NCBI GenBank assembly: GCA_944383405.1
Contig: CALWPL010000005.1
Span: 7,482 to 71,481, forward strand
Origin: an uncultured Clostridia bacterium
Lineage (GTDB): Bacteria > Bacillota > Clostridia > Christensenellales > UBA1242
DNA length: 64,000 nt
Direction: 5' to 3'
Each line of letters opens with the position of its first letter. Position 1 is the stretch's first letter. The notes under the pieces are model-generated. The model had not been told where the DNA came from. It was given only the letters and a program-made list of their open reading frames with translations, and searched no databases. Below, piece after piece: positions 43,901 to 52,378 of the stretch. The position numbers and the translations under genes were made by a program.

Positions 43901-46900
43901 TTGGTAGACAAAATGAAGAAGGAAGTAGAGACGAACTTAGAAATATTGCAATCAATGGTGGAGCAATTTATGTTGCAGGTGGACTTCTTAACATTACTGG
44001 TGGCGACATATCCTTTAACTACGCAAGTGAAATGGGTGGAGCAATTTATATTACTCCAAGCATGACTGTTACGGGAAGTGTCAGTGGCAGGGTTGTCATT
44101 TCAAGTAGTACTCTTCCACAAGAAATGACATATATTTCAAATAACGAAGCAGGCGAAAATGGTGGTGCTATATATGTCGAAGATAATTTTATTGACCAAA
44201 ATGTTTCTTTTGCAGATAGGTTAAAGACCCTAACTATTAATGGTGGAATAATAGACAATAACACAGCAATGTTTGGTGGTGGAATTTACGCAACAAATGT
44301 TAGGATAGAGGATAATGAAAAGTTCTACACAGGAGCAACTGAATTTGTTGATAGCGGAGTTTCAAGTTATGTTTATGGTGTTAGTATTGAGATAAATGGT
44401 GGTACTATTGACCGTAACTTTGTAGAATTTGACGCACAGATGCAAGACATAGGTCTTGGTGGCGGGATATTTATATATGGTGGCGAAATGCAGATGAATG
44501 GTGGAATAATTTCAGGCTCTGCAAATAGTTATATAGCGCTTAATGGTGGTGGAATTTACTTAAAAGATTCTGTTGTTACAATAAATGATGGTATTATTAG
44601 GAATAACGAAGTTGGGAACAATGGCGGTGGAATTTATGTTGATAAGACTTCAACATTTACACTAAATGGAACTAGTTCAACTTTAATTTCAAATAACTAC
44701 GCTTATGCAAATGGTGGTGGAATTTATCAAGAAAAAGGTAAGACCAATTTAGCAACTGGTGTTGATACCTATGAAGAAGTAACTGTTAGTGGAAAAGTTA
44801 TACTCATTGGTGGGACAATTACTGGCAATATAGTAGAGACTGGTGGAAAAGGACCTGGGGCTTATGTAAATACAGAAGCACATGATTTTGTACTTGGAGC
44901 GGGGATAGTAAATGGAGAAGTTTCGTTACTATCAGAAAATTTGGTTATTAATGATATTTTATATCTTGCAAATGATAGTTTAATTTATGTAAATGCAAAA
45001 TATAATCCAGCGTATAATACTCTTGATAGAAAGATACCTGTTGCTTGTGATTATACATCAGATACTTATACAAAACTAGATGGAGAAAGGGTTATAATTG
45101 CAAGATATACAAGTGCGATTGATGAAGCAGATTCTGTTAGTATTGAAGCAAAACTCTTTACTGGTAAGGACAATGCACAACAAGATTACTGTTTTATAAT
45201 TTATAATGGATATGATGTAGTTATAGGGAGAATGAATGTTGCAAAATACATTGAGGGTCAATCGGTTAGTTTCTTTGAAACTCTTGAAGATGCTCTTGAA
45301 AGTGTGAAGAACAACTTAAATACTACAATATACATTTTAGTTGATGAACAGCAACAAGCATTTAGACTTACCATGGAGAAAAAGGTTACGCTTACAGGAG
45401 AAAAACACATTAGGGTAACTTCTGGTAAATATGATAAAGAAACTGATACTTTAACTGAATATGGTGTTAATGAAAGATATCTAAGCGTATATATTGGTAA
45501 TTATGGTGGCGGAGACATTATAACGCTTCAAATGGATACTGGTTCACAATTAATGTTTGATAATATCAGAATTGTTGGAAATGATGATGCTGAAAATAAA
45601 GCAATAAATCTATTTAGAGTAAATAGTGGTAATTTAACACTTAAAAATGTAATTGTTGAAAAGAATGTAAGTAAATCAGATGGAACTCTTATAAATGTTT
45701 CAGGTGGTTCGGCTCACTTAATTGGTGATATTGTTTCAAGGGATGGAACCCAAGTTGAAGGAATGCTTGTAAGTCAAGGGGCTGCTCAACTTGGTATAAT
45801 AAATGTAAGCAAAGGAGAGTTGCTTCTTAGTGGAGAGGGTGTTTTAATTACTCAAAATACGGTTGAAGCAGGTACTATTTATGTAACAGATGGAACAATA
45901 ACAATAGAAAATGGTGCAAATATAATGGGAAATATTGCAAGGTCAAATGGCGGAGGGGTTTATCTTACAGGTAAAAACAGCAATTTAATTGTTGACGGTG
46001 CAAATATTTCATCAAATAGTGCTCTAAATGGTGGCGGCTTATATATTGAAGATGGTGCTATTGAATTTTCAGGGGCAAACATTACTGATAACGAGGCTAC
46101 AAATGGTGGTGGTATATATATTGATATTGAATTTGAAATGGATTTAGGTTATGATTCTAATTCATACATTTCAAGAAATATAGCAGAGTCTTATGGTGGC
46201 GGTATTTATGCAACGGCAGATTTAACTATTGGAAGGGGCGTTATTGTTAGCGAAAACGAGGCATATTATGGTGGTGGTGTATCAGTAAGAGACGGAGATT
46301 TATTAGTAACAGGTGGGGCTCAAATTTCAAGCAATATTGCTATAAGTTCTGGTGCTGGGGTATATTCTACTAGTGGTAATATTACAATTGAAGAAGCAAC
46401 AATTTCAAACAACTCAATGCCTGTTGATAGTACGGAAATGCTAGGTGGTGGTATTTATATTGCAGGCACTGATTCAAAACTTACTATTTTAGGGTTAGCA
46501 AATATTATAGGTAACTCGGCAATTTATGGTGGTGGAATTTATGTTGGACCTGGTGTAATATTTGAGATGAGTCAAGGAAATATTGGAGGGAACTCTGCGC
46601 TTGAAAATGGTGGTGGTATTTACTTTATAGGAAAATCATTTACTATGACAGGCGGAAGTATTGCTGGTATGGCTCAGTCTGACTCAGAAGCAATTTCTGG
46701 GAATAGCGCTCTAAATGGTGGTGGTATTTATCTTGCTGGTGGGGTATTTGATATGTCTAATGGAAACATTGGAGCGCAAGGATATGGAAACACTGCAACA
46801 AATGGTGCTGGAATTTATGTAAATGGGGCACAGATAACTCTTGAAGGCAATGGTGTAATAGAAGGAAATATTGCAGATGGTGGTAATGGTGGTGGTGTGT

Positions 46901-49900
46901 TTATTGACAAAACAGATTCTGGAGTTAATCAAATAATTGGCAACTTCCAAATTGTTTCAAATGAGGCAACAAATGGTGGTGGTTTATATATAACAAACGG
47001 AGCGTTTACTATTTCTGGTGGAAATATTGGTGTTAAGGGCAAACCTAACAAAGCAGTAAATGGTGGTGGAATATACGCAAATGGTGGAAGACTTGAAATT
47101 GAAAATGGAAATATTTCATATAACGAAGCGACAAGCGCTGGTGGTGGAATGTATATTAATATGTGTGGTGTTATTAGCAAAGACGCTAATAATGAAGTCA
47201 GTGCATTGGTAGACTTTATTAGCGGGGATATTGCTTATAACAGAGCGGATTCTGGAACGGCGCCTGATTCTGTTGAGGCAAAGGCAAATGGTGGTGGTAT
47301 TTATCTTGCAGGAAATGAGTATACGAGTTCTGCCAGCGGTGTGTTAAATATTAATTCGCAGGCTGTAATATATGGAAATTATGCAGATGGCAATGGTGGT
47401 GGTATTTATAACAGTGGAAGAATTATTATGGAAGGTGGAAAAATTGGTAAGACTTCTAACAATGATAATGATAAGAACATAGCGATTGGAAGCGGTGGTG
47501 GGCTCTATGTTAATAATGGTTACCTTTATTTAGTTGGAACTGGAAAATCAAATGGAACTTCAATTATAAACAATCAAGCAACAAATGGCGGCGGTATTTA
47601 TATTGAAAATGTTGCAGATAGAGATGAAGGTGTCGCAGGCGAACCATCGGTAATTGCTAATGTTGTATTTACAGATAATAGTGCTGTAAATGGTGGTGCT
47701 TTATATTATGTAAGTGGAAATTTACTTTTCTATAATAATATTGTTCAAAAAAATACAGCCACTTCAACAAAAGTAACAACACCTGAAGGAGAACAAATAA
47801 CAGGTGGTGGTGGCGGTGGACTTTACTTATCTTCTCCAACTGGCAAAAATGTTTCAGAAGAAGTAAAAAATGCTAAGTTTACAATTGAAGGCGGAACATT
47901 TGGCGGAAGTGAAAGTAAATATGCAAATACTGCTCAAAATGGTGGAGCAATTTATGCAGAGACAGGAAACTTCACTATTAAAGGTGGAGAGATATCAGAG
48001 ATTCTTGACATTAATGAAGAGAAATTAACATTTGAAAGAACTGCTGCTAATTTACTAATTTCGTATAATGAAGCAACAAATGGTGGCGGAATTTATGTTG
48101 AAGGTGTAATTGACACAAATGCTTGTATTGTAGAAATAACTGGAACTTTGAGTGATTCTGGTAAGTATGGAGTTGTAATAACGAAGAATACGGCAAAGGA
48201 AAATGGTGGCGGAATTTATAATTTAAGTGGTATTGTTAATTTAGAAAAGGCACAAATTATAACTAATTCTGCTGGTGGAGATGGTGGTGGAATATATTCC
48301 GTATCAGGTGGAGACTCATCAAATTCTGAAAGTTTAGGTTTTAAACTCATTAGCGGTGAAATTTATAAAAATAAAGCGGCAAATGGTGGCGGTATAGCAA
48401 CTGGCGGAGTAAATCTTGATGGGGTTATTTATGCTGGAAGAACTCAGATACAAGCAAATATTTATGAAAATGAAGCACTACTTAAAAGTTCAACTTCATT
48501 AAATGATAGTACAGGTAATGGTGGTGGAGTATATGTTATGGGATCTCCTGATATATCTGGCAGTATGGTTACAATTACACCAAATGATGGAAGTATATCA
48601 GAAACTGGTACAAAGATTGAAGAAACTTCTATTCATGATAATAGTGCAACACGAGGTGGTGGTCTTTACATGGCGGGTGGTTATGTAACGCTTAATATGA
48701 ATATTTTAAATAATACTGCTGATCAAGGAAATGAAAGAGGCGGTGGAGGTGGAGCGTATATTATTGGTGGGACACTCAATCATGAAAGCAGTTCAATAAT
48801 GAATAATAAGGCAAGAAATGGTGGTGGAATTTATGTTAATGGTGGTACATATGCTTCTTCTACTCCAAATGGTTGTGTTCAATATAATGAAGCGTCAAAT
48901 AATGGTGGTGGTATTTACTTTGGTAGTGGCGAATTAGCATTTAATGGAACTGTTACTAGAAATGTGGCAAAAAATGGTGGTGGACTTTATATAGCAAGTT
49001 CTCAAAATGAATCAAATTTAAGAATTGGTGGAATGATAGGTGAAATTGCACCACTTACAAGAGATCCTTATCAAAATGGCAAAGAAGGATTTACTGGTAA
49101 TCGTGCACAAGAAAATGGTGGTGGTGTTTATATTGAAGGTGGAAATTATACGCTATCTGTTGATATAGTTGGGAATTCAGCATATAATGGTGGTGGACTT
49201 TATATAGAAGGTGGACAAATAACCTTTGGCAAGGAAGACAATACAAGTTTCACACCAGTTATTGCTAGAAATGCGGCTACCTTAAATGGTGGTGGAATAT
49301 ATGTGGGTGGTGGTGCATCTTTAGATATTATTAATGGAACAATTGTTGGAAGCGATAAACCAAGTAATGAATTTAATGAGTTTATTGTAAGTCTTGGATT
49401 AGCAAGTGAAAGCGGTTCTAGTGATGATGAAAGTTCTTCAACTGAAAATTCTGATGACTCAGAAAAACTAGGCTCTAATATTGCGACATTTGGTGGTGGA
49501 ATATATGTTGCTGGAATGGGAAAACTTGAAGATGATAATGATACTAGAACACAAGTTCAGATAATAGCAGCAAGTATTGGTTTTAACATTGCAACAAAGC
49601 AAGGAAGTAGTAAAGGCGGTTTAGGCGGTGGCTTGTATTCTGATAGTAAGAGTGGAGAAAGCGTTATTGGACTTAGTTTAAACACTACAGTTAATCGTAA
49701 CATTGCTGGGTCAATGGGTGGTGGCGCATATCTTGATGGAACATGGTTATATCTTTCAGATACTGCTAGTATTGTTGAAAATACATGTTGTGAAACTAAG
49801 AGTGGGGGAGGTCTAACTTATGTTCAAGGCTTGGCAGGATCACCTGATATTTCTGGTGTTAAACCTTATATTCATGAAGTTTACATGATAGATGGTGGTT

Positions 49901-50991
49901 TGGAATTACTTGATAGTTCTCAACTTGGTGTAAATCATAATATTATTGATAGAAATGTAGAAGGAAGTGTTGGAGAAAATAATGTTTATGCATTAAGCCT
50001 TTATTGGGATCTTGGAAGTGCAGATGTAGACTTTGACGCAGTTTTAGGAAATAAAATAATAACTAGTGAAGACGGAGGGCAAAGTGAAACAAGAGCGTCA
50101 TCAGGTATTGAAGGAGATGTTTTTGTTGATACATCAGGGACGGTTAAATTAAATACTCAAAAATTTTTAAATTCAAAACAGTTAACTATGGATTGGTTTA
50201 ATGGTTTACCTTATGAGTTCTTTAGTTTTTGGCAGAAATACCATGGGCGTCAAAATTTAGATGTTACATTTTTACCAATTCCTAATGCTAGTGGAAAACT
50301 TGAAAATGACGATACTATTTATTTAAATAACTCGTCAAATAGATTTAGTGCAGAAGATAATTTTTCTTATAATGTTACTAATTTACATTATGATTATGAA
50401 GTATTTGTAGGCAATAGTGTTACTTATACGCCTTATGGCTCAGATATGGCAAGTATGATGGAGCAAATTAATCAAGGTATAGCAGGAATTGCGGAATCTT
50501 TGGGGATGGATCCACAACAGATGATGGCTTTATTTGAAACTATTGTTGAAAGTAGTTCAGGAGCAGATATTGAAATAGGTAGTGGTTATTTAGATTCAGT
50601 AGTATCTGGCTTGGGTCTTGTGAAAGATGTTGTAGCAATAATACTTTATTTCTGTACTGGTAAAGTAGATATTGTAATGCTTAGTTATGTACTAGATATT
50701 GTTGATTTTATTAAAAGAGTTCCAGTAGTTGGTGGCTTAATTGGTGGTATCTTAGGCTTATTCATGGATTTACAATTTGCAATTCCTTTCCAAGGAGTTT
50801 CACTTTCAACATGGAAATCATGGAGAGATATTCATCATCTTAATAGTAAAGAAATTTTAACTACATTTACTAGTGCTTTAAGAAATGCTACTTCGTTTAT
50901 TACAAGTTTCTTTGGACCTCTTGTAGGACTAATTGCAAACTGGGGAATGGATATCATTTTGTCAGGATTTGAATATACTCTTCCAAGTTAA
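16963..50991 (+). CDS. Giant (11,342 aa) membrane-anchored surface protein: InlB-B/Listeria-Bacteroides repeats, Pmp-like beta-helix modules, BspA-type LRR, hydrophobic helical C-terminus
   Basis: Uninterrupted ORF with strong SD; TM at ~17350-17418 after KKPQSKKRK; recurring F.GW...LYA.W repeats; many N.A..GG(A/G)IY repeats; IG..AF..C LRRs at ~37540-38800; terminator downstream. Confidence 0.92.
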   Translation: MDNNKENNKPESNFKETSSLNTTSQNTSSTPGGDSFADKSSQDNFTQKPSGSFRGVPPIKGAPPIKTDATKGFQGVPPIKTNNVNPSSVGGNLQNISEQNIEKEKQADEKLAHYELAKEKKPQSKKRKNIALLIVILVFLACGGIVLGIFLAPDREYTVTFVDWPVEIPEKTVTEGAIFTAPVPQDIYSNDGVLLLHFEGWTYKDGRDYVPSALRSNITLYAKYTATEITTTFVIPNVYSPNLSQYIYLTDVTTEYYSETIDISSLLGELENFTSDKYDNISNALGFNISTSEIVGQINDVTTASFSQFIKNYYNYATFTILGDDQVYSTQDEIPTPSGDSIVVIGVEPKQVEILFNSNLLSIKDEYDFASGEFNEGDFVNQEISHKINYGADYTFQNYIEVGSWYVPKNHEFLGWSLVPPTLDEEGTINPAFGTTNTYISYGEIRNINRTFLSNNTKITLYAVWDQYMTDLRIYTDYSSTGGLVETEVSVGVSRPVGEWAQNYMELIEKDGYALIGFNTEPDLSGLTLSLDTPLEGGVDSPYYNAEQGCIVLYAVYRKEVNETYIDINDDDLDVAEIDSSLLEELLSIDLNIDEGYVYDNIDNIEILFDEALRRITITNLLAGASIFLPSFDRNHYTLINYTLGYGSHNSGSEYIINETDISFDANIELDAVWEGEDVNFVIHGYMEGENEVIESITVPYGSSVGLSYNNEFVNNETLLHGEFYNRATSQMIASINFNRVGYLFLSWVDSEGVEIDDSTLQVFTINSLFNEIYANWTECLYDITYVLNGGSYENRDDGASSMDSYVEEDVPYGSEISLISSDIERVGYYLEGWATDGNVDAQVIYDYETEKIVVENELTLYAVWTKAYSITLYLDGERNDERVVYVDRDNTFVLTGKEFGDEYNFSRYNASESGDAYEIVTGDSRQEYVFSVDVQLYAMWFEVCFEEGDTDGIYQVGGSAPSSFYVTNKTNFALPKNTFEAHKYYKFNGWDRNGETYTTSYRVDEESQISQLVFDATWGYKDVRVELYFDDVVTGAYASGMAVNNQFVITKANGRYPQQIGREIDYIFDYDSARYINAETENNEIILDIPNPNDNMIEVEGQDYYIYRLYTKWKLNVTFISTEGTTPASASWHLGSTYTGDNSLDVPLEDISSEYSLVMPNGEDDLGFYVDRRTFSHWNNEVLGDSQVGDTVVLTDDITFNAVWEGTKYSIRVIDEENVNSTKVVENIEYGETYSIAELIGLDQETFRSKYEDTVANYYKQIANIYYYYRIGEQIYQREFELDDSLVFATVEGGEIGGFIAEDDITDDDTTHKTPDEIILNIRWEEVVYDVRINLNGGNWDALSGENYFDYGAELYRDENNEYYFVYKVRYSVIRDGGNGLNIAYLGLNRSGYRLDGFSVNEDENISIVDGRGYVYTFSGTAGEYDELYGQETISQIDASWQEILTIGFNTNGGTSTEEISNLIVDVVYDEVVGVDIAKFNIPEIDLRRENCTLVGFYYTNNSDELKAKSTYTFSDRYILNNDFLFSVGEEVIITREIIDTYGSTTNSSLTMYAIWKTNIVFNNTLVNEEVAGYYTPNSPEMIESSENTFTIEFYCGIELSLTELNGYYFDLKNTDVYSPNGWRYGSQDINQLVVDGGIQLDSIWLENSVRIYMKNYNGSDFGSNPIYFESSNGEQVDLNSEYKTLMQSSIMPSLYGYNFIGWSTSVDGNLISINDESVIVYDSENLYTVPNVVSTVYAVYERCEVRVVYDKNSSDAVGEEVTVSGLEFGNTYLLRTDIDYTLTYFNLDGFATTSDAVVPISDSNIIFDNSLTYETRNEEGVIVYTLRLYAVWSRQTKEVRINLQGGSFYNSGVEENLEAFFDPTKDNRIQSYVLNSTNIVLRVFIGLGDEFGFNLPSEEYLAREGFVFDYYTLGEGTLEYEGGQFIRCDNTQPYVFDIHWLEIITIQIYSNMSEDDENYISFDVVYEDLITFDPANKTIYNYSAENEEDAEIVLDFSRNHYYIEAFTSNESGGAEYVYGTNYNVNDGAFIILDSAIKIYCQWKGVDISLTFDANDNAQDPENSTITQIENAFSYGETIKLSDFFSVSERVDGDIGYEFSHLVDEFGNEYQLDANADFNPETSNLEFRTNYTFNAVWAPREYSVIYNFGSGYYITEEGSREKTVTLIYKYGDKVDLLEVTNENSIHEEDSYEGRTYPLYEFDSFTSEDVEVLDGTFTMPNFNIEFMASWVSKDISIIIDSTGGIIGDVVGEPSYSGEIGDNPNGYNLSFEGVNNTNLVVSNLKVGDVVELETLPSPYNLGFSYSYNYLVNYTGEGEFDATVNGFQTFGASDEFELNTDRINSSTLNLNELWNEERQAFVLYFTVVWSTNSYIVSYSMTKPLIENGYSVNASSNITNVDSISQAMVYGEESTLAGPMTLNGWTQTGWSLEVNLNNQTDENTFLFSDGVAETPQIYNFITEDSIVTLYPIWEQNEYDIIISDNLNTDNIIGPSGASSSITVKFTYDESSTIQELLDRNQITINSYTFKDVYLRYAGFKYEGQTLGVMEFNTDDELVFCLAPQGFIDGEDFSANSIELQIVWEEVAFGIHFNLLGGKSEYNSSGLLSNFDNETGYYTLEGEVLYSDLKQGFYIDEYFDAQEDAISFDDEDISYTLAGWSLNNYDMYCLKGELFSLDLGTNEQIESILAPNEDGEFDYIFEFYAIYNDRLVIIDANGGSVNLNIGSEITASDGQVWIADEYEIYTYSYSDAEIVISTNLYDPFVLSNYHIDLDIEDETHTVNRTSDESNILYAPWVGNRRYVVVDSRMNNTLQVGSGFKSTIITDNNVYYGYVEISSEEASTQSDVYVYSYNSSTDVGEFIPYDAGGTYSEDTHFYQKVNNRALLIETRFGEEIDDLSLITIDGITSNFSGWGDDFGVYSDEGTLLLVQGQNDEIIYLYAHIDEVIVTYNLNGGLYNNLDNIEITDGNDADGDDILDPYGIARPKNDDGRYYVYLPGKRVNGYDRGPLKWGYTFLGWSNTYIDYNAYIEAVEKGETTAESLIVPSDENNVRNIYYLQGVQNETLYAIWEPITTTFTFISKSSANDPDAESGPNSINVVVTAQYGDTILFPVKGDGSENGTIIDNWTNSDQNMVFTGWRIDFPNGESQSRTLSQGQEYVLTQERDFSPYGSAPTEITVYSIWKRANVTVKLYVGQGSTRDYAYFGPESQEGFETDNYGVYMKTISTLGGTYVIPELDDFYLKNMYASGVYFDNTYGYPVVADYIVIRQDDVVDGVLSLYIKWDNAQSFIRNFYGNYNKYFGSLETALLAAARISTSEDLDRYEQRIKDKGSVEVVIINTANRFNLSQEVVIGENFNFAVSLDEESVSVSKTIQRSSSYQGVIFSVGLGSSLSFNALNSYKLYLDGGNISAQSFIKANGATININSGVDISNMFNNGSLIEENKTAGAIWVQNGRVNVTGSIISDNRIVTNGTHNVYGAFLYANNSNVYINACQFENNTIQGAGSLFGGAVAVENGGEIVITNTNFLNNKAQSTGVNGTTGGYGGAVYVGGGQNLTLNSTFDYTFSTNWADFGGAIAVVGSQSKQSQVSLVYPYANYNYAIKGGAFYFEYADIIVETISLLGNGSTAPTESITSSNQEISEYGGGIYAGQKTNLVLTIELDDITEDNEISDSFGFSDIMNNRGRLGGVIYTEGLSLIVHAYSFTGNGTNIADIEEMGGVIYAKGFADSEGNINDINKVEIYVSDFSLNNADYGGVMYVGDGASIKLTTLESLIEEIEKKIAEGETISTDVYDSVSGNMEYNSALKGGAIYFDSTTTDSLIEYTAIDFNMKNTDGESSDYGGGIYIANGQVTLGERGIIYKNSAIYGAGAYVGAEEVSGLEEGQENPVAKLIVDGGAFVYELIQYPSSLVTEYNNYVAKIEELEKQLEEDPDNAELQKELEDAIAHREDVMQQILDFEIVSQDGNYGYNGGAVYVGKYGYVDFASGRIAGTQMFGEQLGEFVYNEGTVRYGYVNSEQNVVNGVGYQIYNTGSFDIYGTGEMVSRPRVYIDKTEDGEAYDYLLVSNLNYNISNTIEIVLPTDSYIHDIPIVKFASQEAYDNYLTLMETREAPLFELSDSTITLDTDDDQLALVLHFKSYEIRFRDISNDNITVPNPLTFTYKEINKDTIIDEINAYTVIRDGYRFAGWAFYVETTPEGPSTSRNSIAIEYKGTDNFEISTVINQEVAGQTFYSIDKLPELIPEVLPAHNVYLYAVWEPKPYTIKYKYDTNYGGYTNVEEYTINGHPVTDENLLGLSQLAYYTNSVILRNVADINKVELVAYEPLTTVVRDSSGVPTSVTTERLNTTYTNIAYEEGTGRYYYTANDTYKYYIESDTSSFRVLNVDENGFIYESNEPSEQIYPKQVIVGGVTYDVENNNGQRIVLINGTTYSLRSAYRPDNYEVSHIEINGSNYYDLGDAFQILNSNPFAICFEEPYEIYFTIYFKRMSVDINFVVDSEDETGENNFTIERYVGAEITLPTGSIVRYDDIEHLIYKEGSVLKGFVDETGKEYSLGERYIVSETTTGAHTLTAVWESAVCYVEGVVRTDTGVVNKYYSSLEDAINDINLDNFDVGKSEYSLWIIDTNGTPNTEEIIITLNETLVINSNITISTQGDSAVRFVYSEEFNSSNPMIRVESKILTIGSNNGPQIIFDGTRNASLSSIFIVDVSGQINIGNRAVITQGKISTTSSASTLGGAMTIYGIVNINGCSEDTIMFTNNQSVNGGAIYIANGGLLTVKAQKESGSLFAKNNAILGGAIYVAKGGNLDIVSNAQSSLIISDNSAKDGGAIYLELGVGSVILENVTFSGNIATNGGAIYAVGDFMIKSGLTFISNSAETSGGAIYTDANLSVSGGTFSSNSANMGGAIYSGSYIYVSGGTFDANDVSAGYGGAIYAVGELSIDGEVVISNNKGNFGGAICVDSCVAVISGSVIISNNIALRGGAIYVRNESSLSITDNAEISNNTANSQGSSAESGTTIITGGGAVYLDSSRLYLNGYLTNNTSVNGGAIYAAGASSIILDGVSEITNNTARENGGAIFITGSSSLQIQAEDVLISENSAGVFGGGIYYSSSVNSVLEYGLVADNSINSNSNMTSYNGTEIYLANSATDTSTNSLSITLSGVIIGNYDSSLVENTYAVYVGTRSILYVTDTSEINGEVYTKGLDKNRASMGIVLSGSAFVRDIFLNQYAYAVVEGTLTSTRLTTNGKKINLHFSYYNEDDPNKTPNDTKMVRFNNIDSLNLNKDYFNLVKDIAELTDYCLQITTESSFAWLVIMEIAQVIYINPNGGTIEFEGVTVSGDTSLEIVNLPQRGSLAFLDEIVGHKIGYAMLDTFVDRDSNVIYTSDSELPIYVLTLLVQWTSKDYDVKFIRNGDNGTTTEQTSLKYEAYTRLGTASLTYNTFAGWELAYMENDELVYTGIIFNANTNFSLMSINDENLVSSVTGETGSQIFEKIDGGDNTVYLVSSFTPIEVEILVHGNGGVAIDSTVDSRYEKIQIDEDTWMYTCAQSELYVDYNDFVEDFEYQDHAVDGLFTGTDGVYDEGFDVMYDEINSSINISNVTRLELYCHWKNVVAYIRKDATNEDNERRIYFDDLVEAVNALVTGDDLVIVASNIYLTNTLNFDVDVDVYVRGNVTIHRQNGFYDFLITISSDVNILPENDESSLTIDGNGSAGVATNGSIRVASSGNLVLESGITIQNAFSKENGAGIFADGSLVINGAVIQNNRTMSNGGGIYATGGLQINEGTIISNNTADGFGGGIYIGSGLFNIVKSTISENNAKYGGGVYYASNLAGEISGGQIINNSTSNGEQYFGGGIYIALNSGALVLSEGVAITGNTSGYGGGVFIVGNNDGNSDYNLLIENAVISGNTAVYGGGIGIGDTAYNYNKHVIRMLDGMITNNTATYGGGVSIFRGTFELRGGSISSNIATSGSNMFISSVSSNFYGVASIIGGVIGNATEDSGDIYVNAKNSTIGGKLQLSGFYEIYSHVKVANGAKINVVGVISSDTPSIIIEPVATSSMGEISNYPTGNNLLVVVNFENLIAVQQDKFDLIEDVKNQGVNSYRLKTIEQDIVITSALFTLTIDPMDGVLSSDGEIEYTTDNDLWLTEVYYTSSVYEALSHVTASIENRYFMGFYTYVDEEKVYIDEDFTMPYDDLTVYVEWSNDYYVLTINFNDTRSLSGTQARFNIAGADLTAGEIYDEENRQISLEVFVDGDGTSYGAQAINRIAGLLTRNNYTILGFSPSQLVDGNNEIYGQDGNEFLMPEGDITLYVLWLGNPYTVTYNSNRPSRQNAEQIQIEYTFDELINVGDEDTFDTPGYNLIGWSLSSNSQEVEYEVGESTYNLIDDNNQGISLYAVWEAIEYVVHYDSNMQGRVVEGEIEDDIFVYGVEKSLSSKSFTTIGYTQVGWSLDPNCDSDSTDNYYSFEDNLIAINLTTEDEVTIYAVWAQNTYYVNLHESGVEGSLIVSTVSVLYDSQDTSLPLATQVFGNSNSYYFAGWSLTPYADSDDAQIDFEDGQVLYNLVESGEIDLYPVWIARKVIIYANNNTEDAVTINAQTNGNIVISKEELSSLVTYPGFEIGDLSTNAQVALGTRYNFDNYGVITISAEANQENEIILYIAWRARQYTFNFVVDNEQYDALSSQIKSAKVSGGNAYTNFTDDNRIYAYDDILEGVEFYGWSVDSECSTLDFELGSYNELTSDVFEKFMMYQDVTSSTLTLYAVLSQTYQITYNLNNNSHNVIFGSTTNITGENSVTTDVIDINTPVQLAFSDYQGNVWEIADIDSSNPSSLYAYFLGWAFDSNAEIPDFVEGQEVGLQFSGNITLYAVWGYYTNPFYFEYVSQGEGVAISGLSQLGLTNLSESAHVVFPRHTLKVSNNTYSMGEQIVGIMSSTQEINNITSVDLAYMDNLQTISEFAFANYSNLTSISSVPQQAEIGGGAFSGVSIESVEFESGEQDRYLLDEKGNIYLVSGMSASLHTILVKNSSESIVIGENVQLGSASYAVSEILSYALYNTTFNNVEVTEDVSKISENALGGVNGLSNLVVPFIGTQNDVTSSQTLATMIGDDLIQSLRVVTVTNQTVVLVGAFSGQEYIEEVYYTSGITLINNDAFNGCVSLSMLKGVGEEDFDMSLCTQIGSRAFYGCTSLPTSINFTVTTSIGNEAFSNTNITKVSLSREIESLGTSENREMYTAFKNATNLTEAYVYSTYAFEAVINNTNIKGGDEVNGTIYTDVNFYLVLNNLTDNLLKEKYFSYNIVVYDRVEVFEGNQSVGVYNTLEEAVINAQAGQRILIKADTQITQQIAIDKDISIYAGFSVVDEDDDAYEYAQNREDVYVSVSDALKNTPVFIISSSNVNFGGSFIGDMYSENYLDGNLNIFANNSRSASMIVSTNSNITFGEKMRIYDFKTSSDAQVNGSVAQLLGNTTLTSIGANIRDNSATNGGVFYVDDSELIINSGIINNNSAVNGGVAYVTKQGRVYIEQTNQVSITDNSASMYGGVLYVDTTILDENYAVHIGSSTISNNSANQGGAIYILDGIVSVNSEDANIISNSAATHGGGVYVRGGILSVRSGNIGSVDGANKAVSGGGVYVGLQGIIRLLGQNASISYNTATNGANIYFASQIDTNGLISELSAGIISYGNNGQDVQNKFGGGIYQESGILYLKDSIIISNNSAEYGGGIYLANGVLSIKNTASNSEEASGFGVLQNQASVGGGLYLANGEATISGSDIRQNTASENGGGIYINGGNLRIENTRTCLSNVSENTSQNGAGIYIDKKGAVTISSSNISSNTASMSQEGNDGNGGGIYLQSGSLTLRTAQITNNVAGQNGGGLYIPNAQTNISFTMYEDTTISQNSAVNGGGIYVDRALDISQGLISANTATLGGQIFVGKNAVLTLDKVEITTQNNDIENYTLGVYLEQGGVANAFSITNYTNIHRADTYVYLSQGSIVYVIDRFTADYQVKLYIEEAVAGKKVKVAQFARNDYASAGKFYARYTAFTKETNSIYAVEATVIASLNKEITGNDESEVNYATLKEAVELCQNNSYLRLIGNQEITSTLAVSVPEGKTVTIITDGEQIITRGTEVNGSVYNGYLITVFGTLLLNDEESDNNLLVIDGKKAQNSSSLIYVGDSGRLNIYNNVEIKNNDASLRIYDLTRPNTNKKISISDAYNGGAIYLGGGSIVMHGGSIYNNSARNGGAIYVSSGSLDIRGGSIGFETESGILGNTALQNGGGIFVESGAVILGESQIIGNSAVNGGGVYVYRQGTLEIERTTISSNTATNSGGGLYLASTRSGESYFMTGGEISRNSAVNGGGLYISGGTIIMETDASQISNLFDLNSASKNGGAIYVADTGLINMSGGVLTNNTASENGGGIYYSSNNVNLSSGITDSSIGLQNHGNSAVNGGGIYITSGNIVITGLDFSSNEFSSVISGNTASQNGGGVYVGGTGAVSLIRTGISNNNAVNGAGIYITSTRNIELEGSLVSANSSSGNGGGIYQENGNLIITTTADEQLDGIEGNTSQTNGAGLYIVGGFTRIDSTLIQNNNSITGTGAGIYVGGGEVEITTSNISNNTISGEQKDGQGIYYNAGNLTLLGENIIQNPTSQEARSGSILIQGETSLEESFTISGSISYIYDAIYLKDKGSWINSYEGDESEVASNMAFSQGSNPDATILIKVDSAKDVGDKVAKFSASSILRNDLISMFELDMNSQRMLVQGTGDNADFIILQSQFFQLVVGKEGEVGEIVGVFTSLTELVENLHLYSDRVSERGYLVFVNFNSSEDSYVVNSTVNSNVYEEYLSGFSKKITITPRAENQIFTREDGASDIAIFNVFEGDEVYLGFNSQFNDFYEQFKVNKDTSKLIFEGSENSASSIITNFGKLTLGKGVEVRNEFITSEEGAVNSYGELVVDGAVLHNNEGINGGAIYVADGTFNMLSGEIYANYAINGGAIYISTNVEATISGGTIGRQNEEGSRDELRNIAINGGAIYVAGGLLNITGGDISFNYASEMGGAIYITPSMTVTGSVSGRVVISSSTLPQEMTYISNNEAGENGGAIYVEDNFIDQNVSFADRLKTLTINGGIIDNNTAMFGGGIYATNVRIEDNEKFYTGATEFVDSGVSSYVYGVSIEINGGTIDRNFVEFDAQMQDIGLGGGIFIYGGEMQMNGGIISGSANSYIALNGGGIYLKDSVVTINDGIIRNNEVGNNGGGIYVDKTSTFTLNGTSSTLISNNYAYANGGGIYQEKGKTNLATGVDTYEEVTVSGKVILIGGTITGNIVETGGKGPGAYVNTEAHDFVLGAGIVNGEVSLLSENLVINDILYLANDSLIYVNAKYNPAYNTLDRKIPVACDYTSDTYTKLDGERVIIARYTSAIDEADSVSIEAKLFTGKDNAQQDYCFIIYNGYDVVIGRMNVAKYIEGQSVSFFETLEDALESVKNNLNTTIYILVDEQQQAFRLTMEKKVTLTGEKHIRVTSGKYDKETDTLTEYGVNERYLSVYIGNYGGGDIITLQMDTGSQLMFDNIRIVGNDDAENKAINLFRVNSGNLTLKNVIVEKNVSKSDGTLINVSGGSAHLIGDIVSRDGTQVEGMLVSQGAAQLGIINVSKGELLLSGEGVLITQNTVEAGTIYVTDGTITIENGANIMGNIARSNGGGVYLTGKNSNLIVDGANISSNSALNGGGLYIEDGAIEFSGANITDNEATNGGGIYIDIEFEMDLGYDSNSYISRNIAESYGGGIYATADLTIGRGVIVSENEAYYGGGVSVRDGDLLVTGGAQISSNIAISSGAGVYSTSGNITIEEATISNNSMPVDSTEMLGGGIYIAGTDSKLTILGLANIIGNSAIYGGGIYVGPGVIFEMSQGNIGGNSALENGGGIYFIGKSFTMTGGSIAGMAQSDSEAISGNSALNGGGIYLAGGVFDMSNGNIGAQGYGNTATNGAGIYVNGAQITLEGNGVIEGNIADGGNGGGVFIDKTDSGVNQIIGNFQIVSNEATNGGGLYITNGAFTISGGNIGVKGKPNKAVNGGGIYANGGRLEIENGNISYNEATSAGGGMYINMCGVISKDANNEVSALVDFISGDIAYNRADSGTAPDSVEAKANGGGIYLAGNEYTSSASGVLNINSQAVIYGNYADGNGGGIYNSGRIIMEGGKIGKTSNNDNDKNIAIGSGGGLYVNNGYLYLVGTGKSNGTSIINNQATNGGGIYIENVADRDEGVAGEPSVIANVVFTDNSAVNGGALYYVSGNLLFYNNIVQKNTATSTKVTTPEGEQITGGGGGGLYLSSPTGKNVSEEVKNAKFTIEGGTFGGSESKYANTAQNGGAIYAETGNFTIKGGEISEILDINEEKLTFERTAANLLISYNEATNGGGIYVEGVIDTNACIVEITGTLSDSGKYGVVITKNTAKENGGGIYNLSGIVNLEKAQIITNSAGGDGGGIYSVSGGDSSNSESLGFKLISGEIYKNKAANGGGIATGGVNLDGVIYAGRTQIQANIYENEALLKSSTSLNDSTGNGGGVYVMGSPDISGSMVTITPNDGSISETGTKIEETSIHDNSATRGGGLYMAGGYVTLNMNILNNTADQGNERGGGGGAYIIGGTLNHESSSIMNNKARNGGGIYVNGGTYASSTPNGCVQYNEASNNGGGIYFGSGELAFNGTVTRNVAKNGGGLYIASSQNESNLRIGGMIGEIAPLTRDPYQNGKEGFTGNRAQENGGGVYIEGGNYTLSVDIVGNSAYNGGGLYIEGGQITFGKEDNTSFTPVIARNAATLNGGGIYVGGGASLDIINGTIVGSDKPSNEFNEFIVSLGLASESGSSDDESSSTENSDDSEKLGSNIATFGGGIYVAGMGKLEDDNDTRTQVQIIAASIGFNIATKQGSSKGGLGGGLYSDSKSGESVIGLSLNTTVNRNIAGSMGGGAYLDGTWLYLSDTASIVENTCCETKSGGGLTYVQGLAGSPDISGVKPYIHEVYMIDGGLELLDSSQLGVNHNIIDRNVEGSVGENNVYALSLYWDLGSADVDFDAVLGNKIITSEDGGQSETRASSGIEGDVFVDTSGTVKLNTQKFLNSKQLTMDWFNGLPYEFFSFWQKYHGRQNLDVTFLPIPNASGKLENDDTIYLNNSSNRFSAEDNFSYNVTNLHYDYEVFVGNSVTYTPYGSDMASMMEQINQGIAGIAESLGMDPQQMMALFETIVESSSGADIEIGSGYLDSVVSGLGLVKDVVAIILYFCTGKVDIVMLSYVLDIVDFIKRVPVVGGLIGGILGLFMDLQFAIPFQGVSLSTWKSWRDIHHLNSKEILTTFTSALRNATSFITSFFGPLVGLIANWGMDIILSGFEYTLPS
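39412..42230 (+). repeat. Dispersed identical coding repeat AATAGTGCAGTAAATGGTGG (NSAVNGG)
   Basis: Identical 20-mers at 39412, 40582, 41767 and 42211 within beta-helix modules. Confidence 0.8.
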
Positions 50992-51072: not shown

Positions 51073-51112
51073 ATTTATAATAAAATTATCATTTTTAGAA
51101 TTTGCAATTTTA

Positions 51113-51142: not shown

Positions 51143-51178
51143 TTATTTGTTTGTTAAATGGGAGTTAGGAAAAATATA

Positions 51179-52378
51179 ATGAATATATTTAAAAAACTTT
51201 ATTGTAGAATTTATCAGGGGATATTTAGATTAATTCTACCTATTTTACCATATAGAGAGCCAAAAATTCTTAAAAGTAATAATGATATTTCGACCTTACT
51301 TAAAGAAAAGAAAATAGATAATGTTATGCTTGTTACAGATAAAACTTTGAAGTCAATAGGTCTTACAAAAAGTTTAGAAGAGAATTTAACTCTTTCTAAT
51401 ATCAAAGTGGTAGTTTTTAGTGATGTAGTTGCAAATCCTACAACTCAGAATGTAGAAGATGGGTTAAAATTATATAAAAAGCAATTATGTAATGGGCTTA
51501 TTGCTTTTGGTGGTGGCTCTAGCATGGATTGTGCAAAAGCAATAGGGGCAAGAATTGTCAAGCCAAAAAAGTCGTTAAGTAAAATGAAAGGACTTCTTAA
51601 AATTTGCAAAAAGTTACCTTTACTTATTGCTATTCCAACGACTGCTGGTACTGGCAGCGAAACTACTCTTGCGGCAGTTATTACTGATAGTGTAACAAGA
51701 CATAAATATGCTATTAATGATTTTTCATTAATACCACATTTTGCTATGCTTGATGCAACTTTAACAATTAATCTTCCTAAATTTGTTACTGCGACAACAG
51801 GAATGGATGCTTTAACACACGCTATTGAATCTTACATTGGGAGAAGCACTACGAAAGATACAAGGAAAAACGCACTTGAAGCAACAAAATTAATATTTGA
51901 AAATTTGTATGAAGCATATTTGCATGGAGAAAACTTAAAGGCTAGGCAAAATATGTTACTTGCATCATACAAAGCGGGGCTTGCTTTTACAAAATCTTAT
52001 GTGGGGTATGTGCATGCTATTGCTCATTCACTTGGTGGGAAGTATAATGTTGCCCACGGGCTAGCAAATGCAGTTATTTTACCGATAATGTTAAAAAAAT
52101 ATAATAAAGCAGTTTATAAAAAACTATATAAAATGGCATTATATGTAGGGCTTATTGATGAAAAAGTGGGAGTTGAAGAAGGCGCCCTTTTATTTATAGA
52201 AAAAATCGAAGAATTAAACAAAAAAATGAATATAGGAAATACTATAAAAGAATTAAAAAAAGAGGATATTGAGAACTTGGCTAGAACGGCAGAAAAAGAG
52301 GGAAACCCATTATATCCTGTGCCGGTATTATATACAGCAAAGGAGTTAGAAGATGTTTATTATAAATTGTTAGTATAA
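51179..52378 (+). CDS. Iron-containing alcohol dehydrogenase
   Basis: AFGGGSSMDCAK, IPTTAGTGSE, GMDALTHAIE, VHAIAHSLGG, HGLANA; start 51158 or 51179. Confidence 0.93.
   Translation: MNIFKKLYCRIYQGIFRLILPILPYREPKILKSNNDISTLLKEKKIDNVMLVTDKTLKSIGLTKSLEENLTLSNIKVVVFSDVVANPTTQNVEDGLKLYKKQLCNGLIAFGGGSSMDCAKAIGARIVKPKKSLSKMKGLLKICKKLPLLIAIPTTAGTGSETTLAAVITDSVTRHKYAINDFSLIPHFAMLDATLTINLPKFVTATTGMDALTHAIESYIGRSTTKDTRKNALEATKLIFENLYEAYLHGENLKARQNMLLASYKAGLAFTKSYVGYVHAIAHSLGGKYNVAHGLANAVILPIMLKKYNKAVYKKLYKMALYVGLIDEKVGVEEGALLFIEKIEELNKKMNIGNTIKELKKEDIENLARTAEKEGNPLYPVPVLYTAKELEDVYYKLLV

What the first reader, a model, noticed from the sequence alone, without database searches (positions are those of the whole stretch)
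48541..50991. GATC avoidance stops in the last 2.45 kb of the giant gene, suggesting a swapped-in C-terminal cassette
Seen (manual scan): only two GATC sites in 16963-48540 (26338, 36268). In that stretch Asp before a C-starting codon is repeatedly written GAC (GACCCT, GACCTT, GACCAA) although GAT is preferred elsewhere. Six sites then occur in 48541-50991 (48542, 48721, 49063, 49838, 50008, 50509), with GATCAA, GATCCT, GATCTT and GATCCA used freely. Known: long-term palindrome avoidance reflects restriction-modification history. Inference: the final ~820 aa (end of the last beta-helix plus the hydrophobic tip) were acquired recently from a donor without this avoidance and joined in frame, probably through the repetitive NxAxNGGG-coding DNA. 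The tip would then be polymorphic, like CdiA/Rhs tips but in a monoderm giant adhesin.
Basis: partly seen in the sequence, partly recalled or inferred. Interest (0 to 1): 0.82.

Follow-up and report, generated by a model that had tools for sequence, protein, structure and literature searches.

The report
GATC-rich distal end of giant fibre
The far end of an 11,342-residue bacterial surface fibre gene really does stop avoiding the restriction site GATC, most likely because that end has a separate recombination history, but it is the gene's own orthologous tail and not a foreign toxin-like cassette.

Summary
The giant ORF (16963-50991) has 2 GATC against 49.7 expected up to 48540, and 6 against 5.9 after it. 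Only 6 of 20,000 simulations reach this change-point. Asp before a C-starting codon is GAC in 25 of 27 head cases and GAT in 4 of 4 tail cases.

Contigs from independent studies bridge the junction, so it is not an assembly chimera. A second signal, GC3, changes at 47521. Strain contigs are most divergent in the tail.

However, the tail is collinear with the tails of syntenic orthologues in three species. It gives the same tree as the head. It also keeps this genome's own ACGT (0/4.5) and AGCT (0/6.5) avoidance. It has no immunity gene, no toxin motif and no hit in phages or plasmids. The protein is anchored by an N-terminal transmembrane helix, so the tail is the exposed distal end.

The GATC switch also coincides with a boundary between large GATC-poor (O/E 0.027) and moderately depleted (0.26) genome domains.

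Best reading (about 0.45): allelic homologous recombination in the 3' repeats with a close lineage of different GATC history. Main rival (about 0.25): fast codon turnover in place.

The parts
16963..50991 (+). Giant ORF of 11342 aa, a composite surface fibre with Flg_new, Chlamydia-PMP/right-handed beta-helix and BspA-type LRR repeats
   Evidence: ORF; Pfam: PF09479, PF13229, PF02415, PF13306
17341..17427 (+). N-terminal transmembrane anchor (aa 127-155), preceded by a ~125-aa low-complexity region. A comparable N-terminal segment is present in all four orthologues.
   Evidence: Kyte-Doolittle 19-residue mean up to 3.07; comparable N-terminal segments in G005, G041 and G013
16963..47520 (+). 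Head: GATC super-depleted (2 observed / 49.3 expected), GC3 0.180
45940..48538 (+). 95% support interval for the GATC change-point. It lies inside divergent NGGGIY-type beta-helix repeats.
   Evidence: interval; repeat copies 60-80% alike
47521..50991 (+). Compositionally distinct 3' segment: GC3 0.137, GATC 6 observed / 6.4 expected, ACGT 0/6.0, AGCT 0/10.1
   Evidence: GC3 change-point at codon 10186, LLR 7.4, reached by 2 of 300 block shuffles
48542..50512 (+). Span of the six GATC sites. Four are GAT|C (Asp-Gln, Asp-Pro, Asp-Leu, Asp-Pro) and two are GGA|TC (Gly-Ser, both in a GSPDISG motif).
49840..50988 (+). Distal tip domain (383 aa) of no known family. It has moderately hydrophobic helical segments near the end. 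It is homologous to the tips of G005 and G041 and to one database fragment.
   Evidence: alignment A1, 21 invariant columns; (no family)
51158..52378 (+). First downstream gene, an iron-containing alcohol dehydrogenase. It is syntenic in G005 and G041 and is not an immunity gene.

Best explanation
The gene encodes a giant surface fibre held in the membrane by an N-terminal transmembrane helix. Its last ~1,150 codons (about 47.5-51.0 kb) form the exposed distal end. That end is the gene's own orthologous tail, but its recent history differs from that of the other 30 kb.

I think the most likely cause is homologous (allelic) recombination. The breakpoint would lie in the last beta-helix repeats. 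The partner would be a closely related lineage of the same species complex in which GATC is little or not counter-selected. The imported or retained tail therefore writes Asp-Pro/Gln/Leu as GAT-C. The head, like the ~56 kb block of contig 5 upstream of the switch, carries a long record of GATC purging.

Shown: the discontinuity in GATC and in GC3; the physical linkage of head and tail in other samples; the orthology of the tail.

Inferred: that recombination made the discontinuity, the direction of transfer, and the nature of the partner lineage.
For: 1. There is a sharp contrast within one gene: 2/49.7 against 6/5.9. Only 6 of 20,000 simulations reach it. Only 3 of the 27 head Asp+C dipeptides are conserved in G005, yet 25 of the 27 are GAC. 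Avoidance therefore kept working on newly arisen contexts in the head.
2. GC3 gives an independent change-point at 47521 (0.180 to 0.137). The 11 lowest-GC3 400-codon windows of the whole gene all start at 47413-48913.
3. Logan contigs from other studies bridge the junction: X4 record 7 covers 47111-49716 and X7 record 23 covers 48194-48822. These are also the most divergent pieces in their runs. X4 is 1.57% divergent there against 0.33-1.1% elsewhere. X7 is 5.9% there against 0.5-3.4% elsewhere, and 0.87% at 46741-47541.
4. A 3-state HMM puts a switch on contig 5 at window ~48462. Long GATC-poor blocks total 386 kb at O/E 0.027 and moderately depleted blocks total 921 kb at 0.26. The two classes also differ in GC3 (0.243 against 0.198) and in GCGC, GGCC and AGCT avoidance.
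5. AGCT is absent from the tail (0/6.5, or 0/10.1 from 47521), although its genome-wide depletion is of the same order as that of GATC. Fast codon turnover alone would have relaxed both words.
6. The tail of the second ~11,000-aa paralogue (contig 13) shows the same pattern: 6/5.7 against 2/13.5, with ACGT 0/3.5 and AGCT 1/6.6.
7. Species of this genus differ widely in which palindromes they avoid (GATC O/E 0.04-0.39), so partner lineages with another GATC history exist.
Against: - No donor or alternative tail allele was recovered. There was nothing in 1.84 billion representatives beyond one 29%-identical fragment. There was nothing in JGI metagenome contigs and no strain-level protein in two searches.
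- The tail has the same tree position as the head and only a slightly longer branch. Any partner must therefore be closer to this genome than any sampled species, so it is hypothetical.
- The tail is free of ACGT, an avoidance specific to this lineage. This needs either a near-conspecific partner or purging after import.
- All 6 listed strain differences at or beyond 47.6 kb are non-synonymous, against 6 of 25 in the head (Fisher p = 0.0013). This looks like protein-level selection in place rather than neutral divergence of an imported allele. Only 31 of about 680 differences were printed.
- Genes flanking the giant gene do not show the GC3 shift. Codon usage and tetranucleotides of the tail are unremarkable: 3 of 49 and 12 of 49 head windows are at least as deviant.
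- With a fixed split (last 800 codons), only 4 of 8 large genes show a GATC-richer 3' end.
Confidence: 0.45

Rival explanations
1. Turnover in place, with no transfer. The distal end is under diversifying selection, so its codons are young. New Asp and Ser codons arise in the mutationally favoured form (GAT, GGA-TCN). Present-day selection against GATC in this part of the genome is too weak to rewrite them. Selection against ACGT and AGCT is currently strong and still purges those words.
For: - All 6 printed strain differences in the tail are non-synonymous, against 6 of 25 in the head.
- GC3 is lowest in the tail, as expected if AT-biased mutation dominates.
- The last ~1800 aa evolve fastest in every species pair.
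- Orthologous tails in relatives are also less depleted than their heads: pooled 3/13.9 against 6/150.8.
- tuf kept four ancestral GATC sites while losing all ACGT. This shows weak recent GATC selection in some regions.
- Downstream genes stand at O/E 0.42.
- The second paralogue's tail behaves alike.
Against: - Gap-free protein tree length of the tail is only ~1.1-1.35 times that of the head partitions, while GATC O/E differs 25-fold.
- 24 of 27 head Asp+C contexts are also lineage-specific, yet they avoid GATC.
- AGCT, whose depletion is of similar strength, shows no relaxation in the tail (0/6.5 to 0/10.1).
- The G005 tail evolves as fast and has 0 GATC of 3.5 expected.
Confidence: 0.25
2. 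One reading: a recently swapped-in C-terminal cassette from an unrelated donor without GATC avoidance, forming a polymorphic tip in the manner of CdiA or Rhs.
For: - GATC is at expectation only in the tail.
- The tip has no detectable homologue in 24 of the 27 other genus genomes.
- The paralogue on contig 13 ends in an unrelated sequence.
- Repeats could offer microhomology for joining.
Against: - The tail is collinear and homologous with the tails of syntenic orthologues and has the same topology.
- It keeps the ACGT, AGCT and GGCC avoidance.
- There is no immunity-like gene, no VENN or DPxGL motif near the tail, and no toxin family.
- There is no match in phages or plasmids.
Confidence: 0.05
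3. The contrast reflects regional heterogeneity of mutation or selection efficiency along the chromosome (the L and M domains), not ancestry. The gene simply straddles a domain border.
For: - There are large blocks with a 10-fold different GATC O/E that also differ in GC3 and in GCGC, GGCC and AGCT avoidance.
- The border on contig 5 falls at window ~48462.
Against: - Orthologue identity to G018 and G003 does not differ between L and M genes: 75.8 against 76.4, and 73.4 against 73.6.
- The local flanking genes show no GC3 step.
- The tail exceeds even the M level: P = 0.005 alone and 7e-5 together with the contig 13 tail.
- No known mechanism gives such sharp borders.
Confidence: 0.1
4. Chance clustering or an assembly chimera.
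For:
- GATC is clumped genome-wide, with 14 windows holding 6 or more sites.
- The genome is a 20-contig assembly.
Against: - The change-point is reached by 6 of 20,000 simulations.
- GC3 and strain-divergence signals fall at the same place.
- Contigs from two other studies span 47111-49716 and 48194-48822.
Confidence: 0.05

Closest known systems
Mosaic surface-protein genes shaped by homologous recombination between strains. That such mosaics are common in bacteria is my own knowledge; no paper on them was read here.
   Same: There is an intragenic switch in sequence signature. Strain divergence is raised at the exposed end. The exchanged part is homologous to what it replaces.
   Different: The tracer here is restriction-site avoidance rather than sequence identity. 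No second allele has been recovered. The gene is far larger (34 kb).
Restriction-site avoidance as a record of how long an R-M system has resided in a genome (Rusinov et al. 2015, PMC4687349; abstract read)
   Same: The genome avoids several 4-bp palindromes. Avoidance without the cognate enzyme occurs in relatives. A recently acquired enzyme (Sau3AI family) is present.
   Different: That paper treats whole genomes. Here the avoidance changes inside one gene and between blocks of 30-120 kb within one genome.
CdiA / Rhs polymorphic toxins
   Same: A very long repeat-rich exoprotein whose C-terminal end is its most variable part.
   Different: There is no demarcation motif at the tail, no immunity gene and no toxin family. 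The tips of the orthologues are homologous to each other. The protein is anchored by an N-terminal helix.
Chlamydial polymorphic membrane proteins and right-handed beta-helix adhesins
   Same: PMP repeats (PF02415, 67.4 bits in the middle third) and Beta_helix (PF13229) build the shaft.
   Different: No autotransporter barrel was detected by Pfam. The protein also has an N-terminal anchor and additional Flg_new and BspA-LRR modules, and it is about ten times longer.

Membership tests
CdiA/Rhs-type polymorphic toxin | Conserved demarcation motif (VENN, or PxxxxDPxGL) directly before the variable C-terminal domain | tested here: not met
   one VENN at residue 4406, about 6100 residues upstream of the switch; no DPxGL anywhere. 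The motif definitions are recalled, not taken from a call.
CdiA/Rhs-type polymorphic toxin | Small cognate immunity gene immediately downstream | tested here: not met
   the next ORF starts 166 bp after the stop and is a 406-aa Fe-alcohol dehydrogenase. It is syntenic in G005 and G041.
CdiA/Rhs-type polymorphic toxin | Unrelated alternative C-terminal domains on a conserved body among close relatives | tested here: not met
   the tips of G005 and G041 and fragment P0002 align with this tip (21 invariant columns). The G013 tip matched the tip query (30% identity, partial) and aligned in the four-orthologue alignment. Strain contigs carry the same tail at 94-99.9% identity. The tails of the closest species, G018 and G003, are not assembled, so the test is incomplete.
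CdiA/Rhs-type polymorphic toxin | Recognisable toxin domain in the tip | tested here: not met
   Pfam to E = 1: only a PMP repeat; Atlas best score 0.75; AlphaFold2 pLDDT 35, unusable
PMP / beta-helix repeat adhesin | PMP (GGA-type) repeats and right-handed beta-helix region above the curated cut-offs | tested here: met
   PF02415 at 67.4 bits (cut-off 20.6) and 23.7 bits in the tail; PF13229 at 27.9 bits (cut-off 25.9)
PMP / beta-helix repeat adhesin | C-terminal autotransporter beta-barrel | tested here: not met
   no autotransporter family in any third of the protein. The only strong hydrophobic helix is N-terminal.
Recombinant (mosaic) gene | Phylogenetic incongruence or a divergence step between the two sides of a breakpoint in a population sample | tested here: inconclusive
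   Species trees are congruent. Among strains there is a step in two runs: X7 goes from 0.87% to 5.9% and X4 from 0.3-1.1% to 1.57%. This rests on short contigs, and only 31 of about 680 differences were printed.
Sortase-anchored Gram-positive surface protein | C-terminal LPxTG sorting signal | tested here: not met
   no LPxTG or NPxTG in the protein

The most novel reading that the evidence does not exclude
This small gut genome is a large-scale mosaic of two ancestries with different GATC-restriction histories. Blocks of 30-120 kb stand at O/E 0.027 or 0.26 and also differ in GC3. Chromosome-scale exchange between related lineages would produce such a pattern. The exposed distal ends of its two ~11,000-residue fibres would be recurrent hot spots where alleles cross between lineages. 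Restriction-site avoidance would then serve as a built-in tracer of who exchanged what.
Probability: 0.2. Interest if true: 0.55.

Novelty: new member of a known kind. Interest (0 to 1): 0.33.

Why it matters
The finding shows that a 4-bp restriction-site count, corrected for amino-acid content, can locate a change of history inside a single gene when no second allele is in hand. It points to the distal end of an N-terminally anchored giant fibre as the part that diversifies. It also uncovers a block-wise mosaic of GATC depletion in a 1.3-Mb gut genome, and species-specific palindrome avoidance across a genus. These are useful handles on gene flow in uncultured gut bacteria. It is not a new molecular system, and the toxin-delivery analogy does not hold.

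Tried and rejected
- Donor search. The tip (383 aa) against 1.84 billion representatives gave 1 hit, a 255-aa fragment at 29% identity. The JGI metagenome contig scan gave 100 pattern matches, none confirmed. The search for homologous proteins at 'near' lengths gave 138 hits, all generic PMP or beta-helix proteins at 37% identity or less. The 'shorter' search gave none. Phages and plasmids gave no match.
- Structure. AlphaFold2 on a 4-sequence alignment gave mean pLDDT 35.3, so I ran no fold search. The ESM Atlas gave best scores of 0.75, which is not informative.
- GATC enzymes. The DpnII family is absent from this genome and from all 28 genus genomes. The only 'Dam-like' hit is the rRNA methyltransferase RsmD.
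- Fast evolution alone as the cause. I judge it insufficient because of AGCT and the head's lineage-specific contexts.
- A general rule that all giant genes have GATC-rich 3' ends. This held in 5 of 5 with post-hoc splits. It held in only 4 of 8 large genes with a fixed 800-codon split, and strongly only in the two ~11,000-aa paralogues.
- A 13-kb imported block (47.5-61 kb). Downstream GATC O/E is 0.42, but the flanking genes show no GC3 step. This is left open.
- L and M ancestry by orthologue identity. L genes are closer to G005 (79.6% against 73.6%, n = 11 and 61), but there is no difference to G018 or G003. The samples are too small.
- Read laying. Parts without cover and the loose ends at 51084-51088 were not interpreted.
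Full report
THE OBSERVATION

The window holds one ORF of 11,342 codons at 16963-50991 on the + strand.

I computed an expectation that takes the amino-acid sequence as given and draws codons independently from genome usage. On that basis the first 10,526 codons have 2 sites against 49.7 expected and the last 816 have 6 against 5.9. The best split has a log-likelihood ratio of 9.19. Only 6 of 20,000 simulations that scatter 8 sites in proportion to exposure reach that value.

The codon-level claim also holds:
- Asp before a C-starting codon is GAC in 25 of 27 head cases and GAT in 4 of 4 tail cases. In other contexts Asp is GAT 509 times and GAC 110 times. Fisher p = 4.8e-4.
- Only 3 of the 27 head dipeptides are the same in the closest complete orthologue. 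The head's GAC codons are therefore not copies of one ancestral repeat. They are contexts that arose separately and were each written to avoid GATC.
- The switch is poorly localised by GATC alone. There are few informative dipeptides between 44.2 and 48.5 kb, and the 95% support interval is 45940-48538.

GENOMIC CONTEXT

The window lies in a 1.325-Mb assembly of 20 contigs with 30% G+C. Public runs that hold this DNA are chicken-gut and bird metagenomes from eight studies.

GATC is depleted genome-wide, with a CDS O/E of 0.20. It is not the most avoided word. O/E is 0.03 for ACGT, 0.10 for CGCG, 0.12 for AGCT and 0.06 for GTSAC, while TGCA and AATT are near 1.

GATC is also clumped. Fourteen separate 2451-bp windows hold six or more sites. 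The 17 GATC-rich genes encode two BspA-type LRR proteins, a transglutaminase-like protein, glycosyltransferases, a UDP-glucose dehydrogenase, a GmrSD nuclease, EF-Tu and several proteins without a family. As a group they still avoid ACGT (2/44.2).

A three-state HMM over coding DNA splits the genome into two kinds of long block. Blocks at O/E 0.027 total 386 kb (15/556). Blocks at O/E 0.26 total 921 kb (390/1502). On contig 5 the switch falls at window ~48462, right at the tail. The two classes differ in GC3 (0.243 against 0.198) and in GCGC, GGCC and AGCT avoidance. Even so, the tail exceeds the richer class (P = 0.005). Together with the tail of the second giant paralogue the excess reaches P = 7e-5.

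WHAT THE PROTEIN IS

Pfam finds a Listeria-Bacteroides repeat, PMP repeats, a right-handed beta-helix region and BspA-type LRRs along the shaft.

The only strong hydrophobic helix is at residues 127-155, after a low-complexity N-terminal stretch. A comparable N-terminal hydrophobic segment is present in all four orthologues. I infer that the protein is anchored by its N-terminus and that the C-terminus is the far, exposed end.

The last 383 residues belong to no known family. Their hydrophobic segments are moderate (19-residue means of 1.75-2.0) and are not conserved at that level in G005 or G041. An AlphaFold2 model was unusable, with pLDDT 35.

IS THE TAIL FOREIGN?

No. The evidence is as follows:
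- The gene sits between the same ABC-transporter genes and the same Fe-alcohol dehydrogenase and MscS genes in G005 and G041. The upstream side is also the same in G018 and G003.
- The gene is collinear from end to end with the 11,475-, 11,532- and 11,788-residue orthologues of G005, G041 and G013.
- Identity to G005 is 43-51% over the first 9,500 residues, 40% over 10526-10959 and 35% over the tip. The same decline is seen in G005-G041, G005-G013 and G041-G013.
- Maximum-likelihood trees of two head partitions, the pre-tail, the tail and the tip all give ((G000,G005),(G041,G013)). The G000 terminal branch takes 17-18% of tree length in the head and 21-22% in the tail.
- The tips of G005 and G041 and the single database fragment align with this tip, with 21 invariant columns.
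- The tail contains no ACGT (4.5 expected), no AGCT (6.5) and no GGCC (2.2). ACGT avoidance is peculiar to this lineage among the near relatives: O/E is 0.93 in G005, 0.92 in G003, 0.85 in G013 and 0.64 in G018.
- Codon usage and tetranucleotides of the tail are within the range of head windows.
- No VENN or DPxGL motif lies near the tail and there is no LPxTG. The next gene is housekeeping. Neither phages nor plasmids carry anything similar.

IS THE TAIL NEVERTHELESS DIFFERENT IN HISTORY?

Yes, on three counts besides GATC:
- GC3 has its best change-point at codon 10186 (window 47521), from 0.180 to 0.137. Two of 300 block shuffles reach that score. The eleven lowest 400-codon windows of the gene all start between 47413 and 48913.
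- Logan contigs of four runs from four studies cover the region. X4 record 7 spans 47111-49716 and X7 record 23 spans 48194-48822, so the junction is not an artefact of this assembly.
- Those two pieces are the most divergent of their runs. X4 is 1.57% divergent there against 0.33-1.1% elsewhere. X7 is 5.9% there against 0.5-3.4% elsewhere, and 0.87% in the piece just upstream. X5 is nearly identical throughout.

Of the 31 differences that the tool printed within the gene (about 650 more were not shown), 19 of 25 in the head are synonymous. All 6 at or beyond 47.6 kb are non-synonymous.

RESTRICTION SYSTEMS

The assembly encodes a Sau3AI-family endonuclease (563 bits against a cut-off of 300) next to a C5 methyltransferase on contig 15. 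It is the only one among the 28 genus genomes. Its own gene still carries ACGT and AGCT at expectation, so it looks recently acquired. No DpnII-family enzyme occurs in any of the 28 genomes.

GATC depletion without a recognisable enzyme fits the 'trace of lost systems' described by Rusinov et al. (PMC4687349, abstract read). In that picture, avoidance follows how long a system has resided in the genome.

tuf shows how uneven the record is. This genome keeps six GATC sites in tuf, four of them at the same positions as in G018 and G003. G005 has none. In the same gene all of the 7-9 ACGT sites seen in relatives are gone from this genome.

WEIGHING THE EXPLANATIONS

A change of oligonucleotide record inside one ORF, at the same place as a GC3 step and a step in strain divergence, is what a recombination junction looks like. 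It also lies at a border between genome blocks of different record. Because the tail is orthologous, the exchange would be allelic and with a very close lineage. That lineage is unsampled, and this is the weak point.

The alternative is that the exposed tip turns over so fast under selection that its codons are always young. This explains the non-synonymous differences, the low GC3 and the milder tail excess in relatives (3/13.9 against 6/150.8). It has three difficulties:
- AGCT is still fully avoided in the tail.
- The head avoids GATC in contexts that are just as lineage-specific.
- The tail's gap-free tree length is only ~1.1-1.35 times that of the head partitions.

The two leading readings may both be true.

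LIMITS

- The strain evidence rests on short contigs and on a truncated table.
- Supplementary files of papers were closed and none was needed.
- The taxon and cell-envelope type were not determined.
- The tails of the closest species, G018 and G003, are not assembled.

Noticed in passing
whole genome (G000); relatives G003, G005, G013, G018, G041: Each species of the genus avoids its own set of 4-bp palindromes. G000 avoids ACGT (0.05), CGCG (0.09), AGCT (0.17) and GATC (0.20). G005 avoids GATC (0.06), AGCT (0.09) and CATG (0.09) but not ACGT (0.93). G041 has CCGG at 0.00. G003 avoids almost only GATC, GGCC and GCGC.
   Followed up: partly
G000 contigs C2, C4, C5, C10, C12 and others: There is a block-wise mosaic of GATC depletion: 386 kb at O/E 0.027 and 921 kb at 0.26, in blocks of up to 121 kb. 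The two classes differ in GC3 (0.243 against 0.198). The cause is unknown.
   Followed up: partly
G000:C15:144-2462: A Sau3AI-family restriction endonuclease sits beside a C5 methyltransferase. It is the only one among 28 genus genomes. Its own gene is not depleted of ACGT (4/2.4) or AGCT (10/4.5), which suggests recent arrival.
   Followed up: partly
G000:C1:121315-136931, C17, C20, C15:1083-2462, C10:30151-30831: These genes have ACGT at expectation in a genome where 97% of genes have none. They are probably recent foreign DNA or mis-binned contigs. The contig 1 island also holds a GmrSD-type nuclease gene that itself has no ACGT. The 1641-aa gene on contig 17 has ACGT 9/5.5 but GATC 0/11.1.
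   Followed up: no
G000:C3:105084-106286 (tuf): EF-Tu keeps 6 GATC sites. Four are at the same positions as in G018 and G003. G005 has none, G041 two and G013 one. A second 401-codon ORF at C3:185235-186437 also has GATC at expectation (3/3.3); I did not check its family.
   Followed up: partly
G000:C9:19095-42554 (+) and C13:7982-17779 (-): Two open frames run into contig ends (7,820 and 3,266 codons). They probably form one second ~11,000-residue paralogue. Its N-terminus is 43% identical to this gene's. Its tip is unrelated and Tyr/Trp-rich, and its tail also has GATC at expectation.
   Followed up: partly
window 36813-36838: Seven differences within 26 bp, six of them synonymous, are shared by X4, X7 and X9. 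This looks like a short gene-conversion tract inside the repeats.
   Followed up: no
window 51084-51088 and 51795-51840: Contigs of X4, X5 and X9 leave the reference here, just after the giant gene's stop and inside the alcohol dehydrogenase gene. Depth also rises at 51341-52007 in X5 and X9. This may be structural variation or sequence shared with other organisms.
   Followed up: no
window 48538-48558 and 49835-49855: The peptide GSPDISG occurs twice in the tail. Each time it is written GGATC, so it accounts for two of the six GATC sites.
   Followed up: no
window 16963-17340: The stretch before the membrane helix (inferred to be cytoplasmic) is low-complexity, with repeated GVPPIK/GAPPIK units.
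   Followed up: no
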